The notes under the pieces: model-generated | Database searches by the model: none | Seen by the model: only the letters and a program-made list of their open reading frames with translations | What the model was told of the DNA's origin: nothing | Made by a program: the position numbers and the translations under genes | Shown here: one piece after another, positions 43,286 to 55,688 of the stretch | Layout of the letters: the number at the start of each line of letters is the position of its first letter | How positions within the stretch are numbered: position 1 is the stretch's first letter | IMG/VR virus record: IMGVR_UViG_3300002835_000006 | DNA length: 64,000 nt | Strand: one strand, 5' to 3' | From: a virus | Lineage: Duplodnaviria > Caudoviricetes

Positions 43286-43816
43286 ATGAGACGAAAAATC
43301 ATTTTTATTGATGTTGATGGACCCTTGGCTTGGGGAACGTGGGATTTAGGACCTCAAAATTTCAATATCGAATGTGCTAATTCTCGCAAATTCCAAATTC
43401 CTTATCCTTGGGTACGGGAAGATTGTGAGGCATTACAGGAAATTTGTGAGCGAACAAATGCCGATTTAGTCGTCAGTTCAGATTGGAAACAATTCTATTC
43501 TATACGACAACTTAAAGACATTTTTGTCTCATACGGTGTATATGCACCTGTAATCGACCTAACAACTCATCTAAATTTGACTAACAAAATGAGTCCTCAA
43601 CCAGAGAAAGAAAGAGCACTTCAAATTGCTCAATGGGTCAAAGTCAATAAAGTTTCAAATTGGATTGCAATTGACGATATGAATTTATCCAAAGAGTTCA
43701 AATACCTGAAACCAAGAATACCTATGTGGAGACACGTACAGGTCGATGGGGATTGGGGTCACGGTGGCAGACTAAGAGATAAAGTTGAAGAATGTATCAA
43801 AAAGTTGGAAAAATAA
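43286..43816 (+). CDS. HAD-superfamily hydrolase (Swiss-Army-Knife RNA-repair-type HAD)
   Basis: IIFIDVDGPL, LVVSSDWK, NWIAIDD. Confidence 0.8.
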   Translation: MRRKIIFIDVDGPLAWGTWDLGPQNFNIECANSRKFQIPYPWVREDCEALQEICERTNADLVVSSDWKQFYSIRQLKDIFVSYGVYAPVIDLTTHLNLTNKMSPQPEKERALQIAQWVKVNKVSNWIAIDDMNLSKEFKYLKPRIPMWRHVQVDGDWGHGGRLRDKVEECIKKLEK

Positions 43817-43831
43817 TCATATCTTTGTTTT

Positions 43832-44380
43832 ATGAAAATCAATAGAGCGGATTTGTTATGGTTCTTGAGTAACATCCGTAGAAGACATGAAGGAAAAGAA
43901 TTGACTGATGAGAAGTTGGTTGATGAATTTGCCCACTACATGGAGGCGAACCCCCGTTGTATTGATGTGAATGGTGTTAGTAAAAGAGGGAGGTTCAGTT
44001 ATTCAACTGTTGGATACGGTGTATTCAGTTTGATGGGTGAAAAGTATAGAATGGGTAGAATTGAGGTTTTCGATAGAGAAGATGAAAGTGGGTATCAAGT
44101 TCATGAGGGAATCTACACTATGCCATTCGAAGTTGTAACTCAATTTGAGGATTTTATCGAATCGATTGAAACTGATTTACCAATCAACATTGAGATTGGT
44201 TCTCATAAATGGTGTGAAGAGGAGTGTGCAAAATCTTTAGGTTTTGAAAACTCCGAAGCAATGAGAGACCCTGAGAACGTGAAAAAGTATCAAAGGATGA
44301 AAAACGATGAATATGCACGTGAACAGGGTTATGAAGATTGGGAAGATTTGTTGAACAAAAGTAAATGGACTAAAAAATAG
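43832..44380 (+). CDS. Hypothetical protein
   Basis: 182 aa; TATCTTTG upstream. Confidence 0.7.
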   Translation: MKINRADLLWFLSNIRRRHEGKELTDEKLVDEFAHYMEANPRCIDVNGVSKRGRFSYSTVGYGVFSLMGEKYRMGRIEVFDREDESGYQVHEGIYTMPFEVVTQFEDFIESIETDLPINIEIGSHKWCEEECAKSLGFENSEAMRDPENVKKYQRMKNDEYAREQGYEDWEDLLNKSKWTKK

Positions 44381-44384
44381 TCAC

Positions 44385-44457
44385 GCGTGCGTAGCTCAAT
44401 TGGTAGAGTACTAGTCTCCAAAACTAGGTGTTTCAGGTTCGAGTCCTGACGTGCGTG
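44385..44457 (+). tRNA. trnW: tRNA-Trp(CCA)
   Basis: CTAGT-CTCCAAA-ACTAG; acceptor stem with three G.U pairs. Confidence 0.9.
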
Positions 44458-44462
44458 CACAA

Positions 44463-44588
44463 ATAGGTTGATTGGGGAAGGAATATACGTTAACCTGATG
44501 ATGGAGGTGGTATATTCGGAGTTGGAATCATCATAGTAATGCCAATCGTAAAAGGAGTTGTCCACGCGACCATCTTCTCCTTTCCTAT
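44463..44588 (+). ncRNA. Structured, pseudoknotted ncRNA candidate of unknown class
   Basis: Five Watson-Crick helices of 5-8 bp fill the tRNA-Trp/tRNA-CAT spacer; two of them cross. Confidence 0.65.
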
Positions 44589-44590
44589 AC

Positions 44591-44665
44591 GGACCCTTAG
44601 CTCAGTTGGTTAGCAGCGGCGCGCTCATAACGCGAAGGTCGTAGGTTCAAGTCCTACAGGGTCCA
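44591..44665 (+). tRNA. tRNA(CAU), probably Ile2 (lysidine) or elongator Met
   Basis: CGCG-CTCATAA-CGCG; G1-C72 rules out an initiator; overall similar to bacterial Ile2. Confidence 0.85.
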
Positions 44666-44670
44666 CAAAC

Positions 44671-44741
44671 TGTCGTATGGTGTAACGGTAACACAACAGA
44701 TTTTGATTCTGTTTTTCAAGGTTCGAATCCTTGTGCGACAT
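44671..44741 (+). tRNA. trnQ: tRNA-Gln(UUG)
   Basis: ACAGA-TTTTGAT-TCTGT; U1-A72. Confidence 0.88.
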
Positions 44742-55261: not shown

Positions 55262-55298
55262 ACTAATAAATATGTCAAGAACTCAAAAAAGTCTGCGG

Positions 55299-55688
55299 TG
55301 GAGAAGACGGGAGTCGAACCCGTGTCTTGTTCGCGATAACTATAAGTGACTACACGTTTATTACAACATTGTTTCTCAATGTTCCGAAATATTAGGTTTG
55401 ATATATGTGAGAAACCTACCTACAAACAACTTGGTCTCAGAATTATTTTAAACGAGCTCTGACCTGTGACCCGTATAATGGACTTCTGTTCCTAGGTTAT
55501 ATGTCCTAACCGACCCGACGTTGTCAAAACTATCAAGCTTTAACAACAGCTTCCTCAGCGATAAGACCGAGAGCAGCCATTTTAGCAAAAGTATTGCCAG
55601 TTGTGTTTTAAATCAGTTTTTAAGGAGGTAATTTAGCTCCTACGTGCCACCTATACCTATACACGCCAATCGATGCCATTTCTTCCCC
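55299..55688 (-). ncRNA. ssrA: tmRNA
   Basis: 5' GGGGAAG pairs with 3' CTTCTCC-A giving G3.U70; T-arm GGTTCGACTCC; resume context ACAACT-GGC; tag frame ends TGA TAG. Confidence 0.92.

What the first reader, a model, noticed from the sequence alone, without database searches (positions are those of the whole stretch)
44463..44588. Unrecognised pseudoknotted ncRNA filling the tRNA-Trp / tRNA-CAU spacer
Seen, five Watson-Crick helices: P1 ATAGG 44463-67/CCTAT 44584-88; P2 GATTGG 44470-75/CCAATC 44542-47 (extends by U.G on the + strand); P3 GAATATAC 44481-88/GTATATTC 44510-17; P4 TGATGAT 44496-502/ATCATCA 44527-33; P5 AAAGGAG 44551-57/CTCCTTT 44577-83 stacked on P1. P3 and P4 cross (H-type pseudoknot) inside P2. 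An alternative 8-bp pairing of GGGGAAGG (44474-81) with TCTTCTCC (44573-80) competes with P2/P5, hinting at a switch. The element starts 5 nt after one tRNA and ends 2 nt before the next, so tRNA processing would excise it. Established: phage tRNA arrays host ncRNAs and self-cleaving theta (HDV-like) ribozymes, but this does not fit the HDV, hammerhead, twister or pistol cores by eye. Inference: a possibly new ribozyme, nuclease-resistant RNA or protein decoy class.
Basis: partly seen in the sequence, partly recalled or inferred. Interest (0 to 1): 0.85.

Follow-up and report, generated by a model that had tools for sequence, protein, structure and literature searches.

The report
New pseudoknotted RNA in phage tRNA-operons
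The 126-base gap between two tRNA genes of this lake-water giant phage encodes a real, intricately folded small RNA. About a hundred related phage sequences keep it through compensating base changes, no RNA-family catalogue lists it, and its function is unknown.

Summary
Observation confirmed. All five helices read by eye (P1-P5, including the P3xP4 H-type pseudoknot) are at the stated coordinates. Single-sequence folding is unremarkable (z -0.2); the support comes from covariation. I collected 103 copies (97 distinct) from uncultivated freshwater phage contigs. The nested helices pair in 99% of cells, against about 45% when partners are slid. P4 pairs in 96-99% of cells, with double changes at 4/7 to 6/9 pairs.

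New here:
- A long-range tertiary helix, GUUK (44521-24) with SRAC (44567-70), switches G-C to U.G together in 94/96 sequences (12 joint changes on the tree).
- A loop-E-like internal loop (read by eye only).
- A paralogue and a minimal form share the P1/P2/P5 scaffold.

The gene is single-copy in four complete 317-326 kb genomes. It lies on the tRNA strand, within 12 nt of a tRNA in 84/103 copies. It matches no Rfam 15 family, and it does not fit HDV/theta, hammerhead, tRNA or T4 rnaC/rnaD.

Best reading: a new stable small RNA excised by tRNA processing that acts in trans. The function is not established; a ribozyme or a tRNA mimic remains possible. An unfollowed first-reader note (e1-5335767) recorded what appears to be the same family in another genome.

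The parts
44385..44458 (+). Upstream tRNA-Trp(CCA); no encoded CCA. Its 3' trimming would set the 5' end of the RNA.
   Evidence: ARAGORN; Rfam tRNA 62 bits
44459..44590 (+). Whole spacer, taken as the presumed primary extent of the small RNA (folded core 44464-44587).
   Evidence: CM R1 hit 44463-44588, 148 bits, E 3e-38; single copy in the record
44464..44467 (+). P1 5' strand (UAGG); pairs with 44584-44587.
   Evidence: Pairs 3-5/133-135 are 99-100% paired. Pair 2/136 is AU:16 UA:16 GC:1 in the long type.
44469..44475 (+). P2 5' strand (U GAUUGG); pairs with 44542-44548.
   Evidence: 100% paired, 3-4 of 6 pairs with double changes (GAUUAG/CUAAUC, AAUCGG/CCGAUU, GAACGG/CCGUUC). The seventh pair is U-G or U-A.
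44476..44480 (+). J2/3 GGAAG; its GAA is the proposed half of a loop-E / sarcin-ricin-like internal loop.
   Evidence: Nearly invariant columns. The motif assignment is inference from the AGUA/GAA signature, not tested.
44481..44488 (+). P3 5' strand; pairs with 44510-44517 (stem 1 of the H-type pseudoknot).
   Evidence: All 8 pairs change on both sides; 98.5% paired.
44493..44495 (+). Possible P3a (ACC) with GGU 44506-44508.
   Evidence: The equivalent helix 31-33/50-52 covaries in the long type (3/3 pairs). In the short-type MAFFT alignment only 61% is paired, so it is inconclusive for the window.
44496..44502 (+). P4 5' strand; pairs with 44527-44533 (stem 2, crossing P3).
   Evidence: 95.8% paired, 4/7 double changes; 98.9%, 6/9 in the long type.
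44510..44517 (+). P3 3' strand.
   Evidence: As for P3 5' strand.
44518..44526 (+). Loop 3 of the pseudoknot (GGAGUUGGA). GUUG 44521-44524 forms the tertiary helix PK2 with 44567-44570.
   Evidence: GGAGUU is invariant. The top non-helix mutual-information pair is 68/116. G-C in 44, U.G in 50, other in 2 of 96 sequences. Twelve joint switches on the tree; 5/5 independent pairs.
44527..44533 (+). P4 3' strand.
   Evidence: As for P4 5' strand.
44534..44541 (+). J4/2 UAGUAAUG; AGUA 44535-38 lies opposite GAA 44477-79 (loop-E-like).
   Evidence: AGUAA and G are invariant, and the base between them is free (U/C/A). The motif is inferred.
44542..44548 (+). P2 3' strand.
   Evidence: As for P2 5' strand.
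44551..44557 (+). P5 5' strand (AAAGGAG); pairs with 44577-44583 and stacks on P1.
   Evidence: 99.3-99.6% paired; 4 of 7 pairs with double changes and up to five pair types at one position.
44558..44576 (+). 19-nt P5 loop, WYGUCCAC-NNR-ACCAUCUU. CGAC 44567-70 is the 3' strand of PK2; the rest is invariant and unpaired.
   Evidence: Invariant columns. The loop is kept in the paralogue and in the 59-nt minimal form.
44577..44583 (+). P5 3' strand.
   Evidence: As for P5 5' strand.
44584..44587 (+). P1 3' strand (CCUA).
   Evidence: As for P1 5' strand.
44591..44666 (+). Downstream tRNA-Met(CAU). RNase P cleavage at its 5' end would leave a 2-3 nt tail after P1.
   Evidence: ARAGORN. A downstream tRNA lies at <=12 nt (mostly 2-5 nt) in 74/103 family members.

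Best explanation
The spacer is a single-copy gene for a new family of compactly folded small RNAs (109-141 nt; 126 nt here) that sits as one unit inside the tRNA operon of freshwater jumbo phages.

Shown: the RNA forms a tight three-way junction with joining strands of 1, 2 and 0 nt. P1 closes the two ends and stacks on P5. The P2 arm carries a conserved internal loop (loop-E-like by sequence) and is capped by an H-type pseudoknot (P3/P3a crossing P4). Loop 3 of that pseudoknot (GUUK) base-pairs with the 19-nt P5 loop (SRAC), which ties the two arms side by side. The functional strand is the tRNA strand.

Inferred: the RNA is transcribed with the tRNAs and cut out by the enzymes that trim its neighbours. 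These would be 3'-end processing of the upstream tRNA 0-7 nt before P1, and RNase P at the downstream tRNA 2-5 nt after P1. That leaves a stable RNA whose ends are locked in P1. It would then act in trans through its invariant unpaired surfaces (the rest of the P5 loop, GGA of loop 3, the internal loop), binding a protein or RNA partner that is not yet known. A role in the tRNA-centred conflict with the host is possible, because RNA-repair-type genes lie within the same tRNA arrays.
For: Structure:
- 99.2% of cells paired against about 45% for slid partners; 17/24 pairs with double changes.
- All seven helices, including P4 and PK2, are 95.6-100% paired in 40 gapless long-type copies.
- The window's own subtype gives the same result.
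- PK2 shows G-C/U.G co-switching in 94/96 sequences, with 12 joint changes on the tree and 5/5 independent pairs.

Strand: G.U pairs are frequent (P3 pair 20/60 is GU:21 AU:19; PK2 U.G in 50). On the other strand these would be C.A mismatches.

Not coding: the 22-codon frame in the window hits a stop after 5 codons in relatives (alignment), and the helices change by compensating substitutions.

A dedicated gene rather than a repeat: one copy in each of four complete 317-326 kb genomes and one in this record.

An operon unit:
- 84/103 copies lie within 12 nt of a same-strand tRNA.
- 74 copies have a tRNA 2-5 nt downstream.
- The usual order is Trp - RNA - Tyr.
- The paralogue sits 5 nt upstream in tandem.

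Precedent: in T4 the order is tRNA-Arg, 1 nt, rnaD (119 nt), 6 nt, rnaC (139 nt), both annotated as 'small, stable RNA'.

The constant part is the P1/P2/P5 scaffold with its loop. The P2 cap is exchangeable: pseudoknot, another domain, or nothing. This fits a recognition head on a variable body.

A HAD_SAK_2 RNA-repair-type ORF lies in the array at 43286-43816 and near 14 of 91 other copies.

Weak: contigs of RNA libraries from three studies hold family members, one 84-nt contig at depth 92 over the 3' module.
Against: - No RNA ends, abundance or half-life were measured. The RNA-library contigs may include DNA, and they cannot show ends.
- No partner was found. No protein gene other than tRNAs is a consistent neighbour (the most frequent are Peptidase_M23 in 27/91 loci and HAD_SAK_2 in 14/91). 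There is no Ro/TROVE or RtcB gene in four complete genomes. No complementary target lies in the window.
- The gene is dispensable in some close relatives. L004 goes Trp-5 nt-Tyr without it, and L011 keeps only a truncated remnant.
- Roughly 45% invariant positions and a double pseudoknot fit a ribozyme or an aptamer as well as a binding RNA.
Confidence: 0.5

Rival explanations
1. A new class of self-cleaving ribozyme that helps release the neighbouring tRNAs, as theta (HDV-like) ribozymes are proposed to do for tRNA 3' trailers.
For: The RNA sits directly against tRNAs. It has a compact double-pseudoknot fold with many invariant unpaired nucleotides. Theta ribozymes set a precedent for ribozymes next to phage tRNAs (PMC10879173).
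Against: No known ribozyme model matches at E<=10. The three-way junction has only 1, 2 and 0 joining nucleotides, leaving no obvious core there. The upstream distance to the tRNA varies (0-7 nt, or another element of 80-130 nt lies between), and 19/103 copies are not next to any tRNA, so a fixed cleavage-to-tRNA geometry is lacking. A 59-nt form without the pseudoknot domain keeps the P5 loop.
Confidence: 0.12
2. A tRNA mimic. P1 stacked on P5 (11-12 bp) imitates the acceptor/T-arm helix, and the PK2 contact imitates the D-loop/T-loop elbow. tRNA-handling factors (RNase P, the CCA-adding enzyme, or host anticodon or acceptor nucleases) would then bind it, as a substrate or as a decoy.
For: It is laid out like a tRNA gene in the array, with the same 0-7 nt spacing, and in tandem with its paralogue. 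P1 plus P5 gives 4-5 + 7 bp with no joining nucleotide. The arm-to-loop tertiary pairing is real. RNA-repair-type genes lie in the arrays. T4 rnaC ends in a T-arm-like GGGTTCGAATCCC hairpin (sequence), so tRNA-like small RNAs do occur in phage tRNA operons.
Against: There is no tRNA call by ARAGORN or RF00005. The P5 loop is 19 nt with no T-loop consensus. There is no anticodon-like arm and no 3' CCA or discriminator context. The length match of P1 plus P5 is the only quantitative resemblance.
Confidence: 0.15
3. A cis-acting operon element, such as a processing or folding insulator or a ligand-sensing aptamer, that controls maturation or read-through of the downstream tRNAs rather than acting as a free RNA.
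For: It is always on the tRNA strand and is tightly spaced to the downstream tRNA (2-5 nt in 74/103 copies). A three-way junction with two arms tied by a loop contact is also the layout of several aptamers (my knowledge).
Against: The identity of the downstream tRNA varies (Tyr, Val, Trp, Met, Asn, Thr, His). Some copies have no tRNA within 300 nt. No terminator or expression platform follows. Close relatives process the same tRNAs without it (L004).
Confidence: 0.08
4. A decaying tRNA gene or a small mobile insertion with no function of its own.
For: There is presence/absence polymorphism among close relatives, and a truncated remnant in L011. The window has lost the tRNA-Tyr that follows the element in relatives.
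Against: It is single-copy per genome. About 45% of positions are invariant across copies whose helices have been fully rewritten by compensating changes. Neutral decay or a selfish repeat would not maintain that pattern.
Confidence: 0.03

Closest known systems
Phage T4 small stable RNAs, species 1 (rnaC, 139 nt) and species 2 (rnaD, 119 nt)
   Same: They are non-tRNA RNAs of 119-139 nt placed head-to-tail after a tRNA in the phage tRNA operon, with 1-6 nt spacers. This family has the same layout, and some genomes carry it as a tandem pair of paralogues (109-126 nt plus 131-141 nt, 5 nt apart). The function of the T4 RNAs is, to my knowledge, still unknown.
   Different: There is no sequence or structure similarity. 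The family model scores nothing on the T4 region (best E 0.21, elsewhere in the locus). T4 rnaC ends in a T-arm-like hairpin; this family has a 19-nt loop and two pseudoknots.
Theta (minimal HDV-like) ribozymes next to phage tRNAs (PMC10879173)
   Same: They are small pseudoknotted RNAs directly adjacent to tRNA genes of uncultivated tailed phages, proposed to take part in tRNA end formation.
   Different: HDV-like ribozymes have a nested double pseudoknot with a hairpin (P3) between the crossing strands. Here only 5-7 nt separate them. No HDV family model matches at E<=10. The habitat differs (lake water, not gut), and the position relative to the tRNA is not fixed.
tRNA and tRNA-like domains (tmRNA tRNA-like domain, bacterial Y RNA YrlA)
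   Same: The ends are paired in a short stem that stacks on a hairpin. A long arm replaces the D and anticodon arms and leads to a pseudoknot, as in tmRNA topology. The arm contacts the hairpin loop. The gene is placed among tRNAs.
   Different: There is no match to the tRNA, tmRNA or YrlA models in the element, no T-loop, no CCA, and no Ro (TROVE) gene in four complete genomes. The phage has a separate, normal tmRNA.
Three-way-junction RNAs whose two arms are held parallel by a loop-loop contact (type III hammerhead, purine riboswitch); comparison from my own knowledge
   Same: Three helices meet at a junction, and two arms are tied by a covarying distal tertiary pairing (PK2).
   Different: In those RNAs the conserved core lies in the junction strands. 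Here the junction has only 3 joining nucleotides, and the invariant bases lie in the P5 loop, loop 3 and the internal loop. The hammerhead-like CUGAUGA in the window (44495-44501) is the P4 strand plus one base, and it is replaced by unrelated sequences in homologues.

Membership tests
HDV-like / theta ribozyme | Nested double pseudoknot (P1 crossing P2) with the P3 hairpin and L3 between the second and third strands | tested here: not met
   The crossing helices P3 and P4 are separated by only 7 nt in the window (44503-44509), with a single unpaired base (G49) between P4 and P3a in the long type. There is no room for a hairpin.
HDV-like / theta ribozyme | Match to the Rfam HDV-type covariance models | tested here: not met
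   cmscan of 44350-44700 at E<=10 lists only tRNA and chance hits outside the element.
Hammerhead ribozyme | Conserved CUGANGA and GAAA core strands at a three-way junction | tested here: not met
   The junction strands are U, UA and none. CUGAUGA at 44495-501 is the covarying P4 strand (GUGUAUUUC, UGGUAGU and others in homologues). No Rfam hammerhead hit.
Twister, twister-sister, pistol, hatchet, hairpin ribozymes | Match to the family covariance model | tested here: not met
   No hit at E<=10 on the window, nor at gathering score on five homologous loci.
Any self-cleaving ribozyme | Site-specific self-scission | not testable with these tools
   This needs in vitro transcription or end-mapping. 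Only contigs were available from the RNA libraries.
tRNA | Cloverleaf with D, anticodon and T arms recognised by ARAGORN or RF00005 | tested here: not met
   No call inside 44459-44590.
T4 rnaC/rnaD-type operon-embedded stable RNAs | Non-tRNA unit of about 120-140 nt, co-oriented with and a few nt from tRNAs in a phage tRNA operon | tested here: met
T4 rnaC/rnaD-type operon-embedded stable RNAs | Sequence or structure homology to rnaC or rnaD | tested here: not met
   The family CM finds nothing at rnaC or rnaD with filters off.
T4 rnaC/rnaD-type operon-embedded stable RNAs | Accumulates as a stable processed RNA in infection | not testable with these tools
   Only presence in RNA-library contigs is seen.
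H-type pseudoknot | A hairpin-loop strand pairs with a downstream strand, and both stems are supported | tested here: met
   P3(+P3a) and P4 both covary.
Loop E / sarcin-ricin (bulged-G) motif | AGUA opposite GAA in an internal loop, forming non-canonical pairs | tested here: inconclusive
   The sequence signature is invariant (GAA 44477-79, AGUA 44535-38). The non-canonical geometry cannot be tested here.
Bacterial Y RNA (YrlA) with Ro | Rfam YrlA match and a Ro/TROVE gene in the genome | tested here: not met
   The only YrlA hit is a 13-bit chance match over tRNA-Trp. There is no TROVE gene in four complete genomes.

The most novel reading that the evidence does not exclude
The family is a categorically new functional RNA of phage tRNA operons. 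It could be a new self-cleaving ribozyme class that matures tRNA transcripts without host nucleases. Alternatively it could be an elbow-mimicking decoy that disarms host tRNA-targeting defence enzymes. In either case the invariant P5 loop would be the active or recognised site.
Probability: 0.15. Interest if true: 0.85.

Novelty: new variant of a known kind. Interest (0 to 1): 0.62.

Why it matters
Large phages carry tRNA arrays whose role in overcoming host defences is under active study, but the non-tRNA units inside those arrays have been almost ignored since T4's species 1 and 2 RNAs were found, and those still have no known function. This family offers:
- a well-defined fold with two pseudoknots;
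- about 100 natural variants that serve as a mutational map;
- a single-copy gene with natural knock-outs among close relatives.

It is therefore a tractable entry point for asking what such operon-embedded RNAs do. If it proves catalytic or a decoy, it would add a new RNA mechanism to phage-host conflict. If not, it still adds a solid new family to RNA catalogues and improves the annotation of 'empty' tRNA spacers.

Tried and rejected
- Single-sequence folding of either strand gave no signal (z -0.20 and -0.80). It also cannot represent the pseudoknots.
- The per-sequence 'best helix versus shuffle' test for P4 was weak in these AU-rich sequences. It was replaced by column-wise counting on gapless subtype alignments.
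- GenBank phages (50,697 records, blastn): only the tRNAs matched, and nothing matched over the element.
This says nothing about cellular genomes.
- Supplementary tables of the IMG/VR structured-RNA survey (PMC10690425) are not held. Whether this family is among its 8,495 unnamed candidates could not be checked.
- No target was found for the P5 loop by complementarity in the window (10 matches against 4.8 expected, all with 3 mismatches except the element itself).
- Ro/TROVE and RtcB genes were not found.
- The neighbour-gene enrichment turned up a spurious antisense ORF over the RNA and tRNA as its top 'family', and no consistent protein partner.
- P3a in the window's subtype was only 61% paired in the MAFFT alignment, so it stays open.
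- PK2 might extend by GGA with UCU across a 2-nt bulge. All these bases are invariant, so there is no covariation to test; not claimed.
- RNA-library contigs: parts of the stretch were without cover. No conclusion was drawn from the gaps.
- Literature searches found no description of this RNA.

Full report
**What is there.** The window is part of an 80.6-kb IMG/VR virus record (CheckV completeness 27%). Complete relatives are 317-326 kb. The same DNA occurs in lake-water and freshwater metagenomes of many studies. The finding lies in a tRNA array: tRNA-Trp 44385-44458, a 132-nt spacer, then tRNA-Met(CAU) 44591-44666, Gln, His and Ser. Rfam 15 finds only tRNAs and a tmRNA in the window. Nothing falls in the spacer even at E<=10.

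**Is it more than chance?** Not from this sequence alone. The minimum-free-energy fold is no better than shuffles (z -0.20). The evidence is comparative.
- The flanking ORF 43832-44380 led to 19 related loci. In several of them the same element follows tRNA-Trp, with conserved ends and a rewritten middle.
- Three conserved-motif scans of IMG/VR gave about 150 further loci.
- nhmmer found 162 copies, 99 of them distinct.
- A covariance model found 103 hits in 93 representative loci, at 58-148 bits for full-length copies.

**Helices.**
- Model alignment, 97 distinct rows: the nested helices pair in 99.2% of cells, against 40-49% when partners are slid by 1-3 columns. 17 of 24 pairs change on both sides, and no shuffle out of 500 reaches this.
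- Long subtype: 40 copies align without a single gap. All helices, pseudoknot included, could be counted: P1 95.6%, P2 100%, P3 99.2% (7/9 double changes), P3a 98.3% (3/3), P4 98.9% (6/9), P5 99.6% (4/7).
- Short subtype with the window: P4 is 95.8% paired with 4/7 double changes.
- G.U pairs are common (for example GU:21 and AU:19 at one P3 pair), so the RNA is read from the tRNA strand.
- The small frame at 44468-44536 is closed by a stop after five codons in relatives. The 78-codon antisense frame is an artefact of conserved RNA sequence.

- The proposed alternative helix GGGGAAGG/TCTTCTCC is not conserved. Its 3' half is the P5 strand, which changes in step with 44554-57 (GGGG/CCCC, GAGG/CCTC, GTAG/CTAC, TCAG/CTGA, GATG/CATC and others), while GGGGAA stays nearly invariant.
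- Mutual information pointed to one strong pair outside the helices. This is the base after GGAGUU in pseudoknot loop 3 and the middle variable base of the P5 loop. Across 96 sequences the pair is U.G in 50, G-C in 44 and other in 2. Its neighbours (G-C, U-A, U-A/G) are constant and complementary.
- On a tree built without these two positions, each changes 12 times and always together. All 5 independent pairs on supported branches agree, p 0.06, the minimum possible for five.
- In the window this helix (PK2) is GUUG 44521-24 with CGAC 44567-70. It ties the tip of the P2 arm to the P5 loop.
- The invariant GAA (44477-79) opposite AGUA (44535-38) has the sequence signature of a loop-E / sarcin-ricin internal loop. 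This is inference from the motif, not a test.
- With U44469.G44548 (U-G or U-A in the family), the three-way junction has only 1, 2 and 0 joining nucleotides, so P1 stacks on P5.

**Family anatomy.** The constant part is P1, P2, the joining bases and P5 with its 19-nt loop (WYGUCCAC-NNR-ACCAUCUU). The cap of P2 varies.
- Short pseudoknot, 125-132 nt (the window).
- Long pseudoknot with P3a, 136-138 nt.
- A 141-nt form.
- A paralogue with a different inner domain (109 or 126 nt) that sits 5 nt upstream of the main copy in nine listed loci.
- One 59-nt form with no inner domain.

**Context.**
- 84 of 103 copies lie within 12 nt of a same-strand tRNA, and 96 within 300 nt.
- 74 have a tRNA 2-5 nt downstream. 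The commonest order is Trp - RNA - Tyr.
- The window and a few others have lost tRNA-Tyr and a further 66-nt unit, which puts the RNA next to tRNA-Met.
- Each of four complete genomes has exactly one copy, so it is a gene, not a dispersed repeat.
- It is not essential. L004 and L010 go straight from Trp to Tyr, and L011 keeps only a truncated remnant.
- No protein gene accompanies it consistently. The most frequent neighbours are an M23 peptidase (27/91 loci) and a HAD_SAK_2 RNA-repair-type protein (14/91 loci, and 43286-43816 in the window).
- Contigs of RNA libraries from three studies contain family members, one at depth 92 over the 3' module. This is weak, because such libraries can hold DNA and contigs show no ends.

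**Comparison with known RNAs.**
- HDV-like/theta ribozymes need a hairpin between the crossing strands. Here there are 5-7 nt. No model matches.
- The hammerhead-like CUGAUGA is a covarying helix strand.
- The tRNA, tmRNA and Y-RNA models do not match, and no Ro gene exists in four complete genomes.
- The closest parallel is organisational. T4 places two 'small, stable RNAs', rnaD (119 nt) and rnaC (139 nt), 1 and 6 nt apart after tRNA-Arg. The family model sees no similarity to them.
- No deposited phage carries a recognisable copy. I found no paper describing the family.
- A 2023 survey of IMG/VR lists thousands of unnamed candidates that I could not inspect.
- A first-reader note on another genome (e1-5335767) had recorded a unit that appears to belong to the same family, without follow-up.

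**Mechanism.**
- Shown: fold, strand, conservation pattern, single copy, and placement as a tRNA-like unit.
- Inferred: co-transcription with the tRNAs and release by the tRNA end-processing enzymes. This would give a roughly 130-nt RNA with both ends buried in P1 and a compact two-arm body, hence stable. It would act in trans through the invariant unpaired bases of the P5 loop, loop 3 and the internal loop. I put this at about 0.5.
- Rivals: a tRNA mimic or decoy (0.15), a new self-cleaving ribozyme (0.12), a cis-acting operon element (0.08), and a neutral remnant or mobile insertion (0.03).

**Verdict.** This is a real, previously uncatalogued structured RNA family with unusually strong comparative support and a newly found tertiary contact. 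Its function is open. I score it well above an ordinary motif but below a demonstrated new mechanism.

Noticed in passing
L100:4006-4131 (also L052, L061, L080, L112, L127; 109-nt form in L074:3589-3697, L083, L086): A paralogue with the same P1/P2/P5 scaffold and P5 loop (here ...CACGCACCCAUCUU) but a different inner domain. It sits 5 nt upstream of the main copy, forming a tandem pair like T4 rnaD-rnaC. In L074/L083/L086 the pair lies about 500 nt after a phage tmRNA rather than between tRNAs.
   Followed up: partly
L141:9706-9764 (-): A 59-nt minimal form. P2 is a 4-bp hairpin with no pseudoknot domain, yet the P5 stem and its 19-nt loop are intact. It lies 3 nt after tRNA-Thr. Only one instance was seen.
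   Followed up: no
L005:3853-3918 (also L002/L003 4364-4428): A separate 66-nt unit between tRNA-Tyr and tRNA-Met. It folds as a three-way junction closed by a 9-bp stem (MFE -17.9, z -3.06). The window lacks it, together with tRNA-Tyr.
   Followed up: partly
L002:4049-4139; similar in L003, L011:3641-3730, L024, L038: A further unit of about 90 nt, closed by AAAUGU.../...ACAUUU, inserted between tRNA-Trp and the RNA. L021/L026/L030 carry an unrelated unit of about 90 nt at the same place. These arrays hold several families of non-tRNA units.
   Followed up: no
window 1-64000: ARAGORN finds no tRNA-Tyr anywhere in the 64-kb window, although relatives carry it directly after the RNA. The array here has a Tyr plus 66-nt-unit deletion, shared with L171, L143, L024, L159 and L041.
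   Followed up: partly
window 43286-43816 (+): An ORF inside the tRNA array matches HAD_SAK_2, the HAD domain of 'Swiss Army Knife' RNA-repair proteins (E 4e-19). A related ORF lies near 14 other copies of the RNA.
   Followed up: partly
window 55296-55688 (-): A phage-encoded tmRNA (Rfam 91 bits) with an unusual 21-residue tag ending ...AEEAVVKA.
   Followed up: no
L019/L020:3982-4054: ARAGORN reports a tRNA-like gene with a four-base anticodon (ctta) in more distant relatives, at the position where others have tRNA-Trp.
   Followed up: no
L011:3731-3775: A truncated remnant of the RNA: the 5' 16 nt of the family consensus followed by unrelated sequence, directly before tRNA-Gln. This is a natural loss of the gene.
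   Followed up: partly
window 44591-44666 (-): The Rfam 'Plastid-ycf2' match (35 bits, below its threshold of 66) is just the antisense of tRNA-Met and is an artefact.
   Followed up: yes
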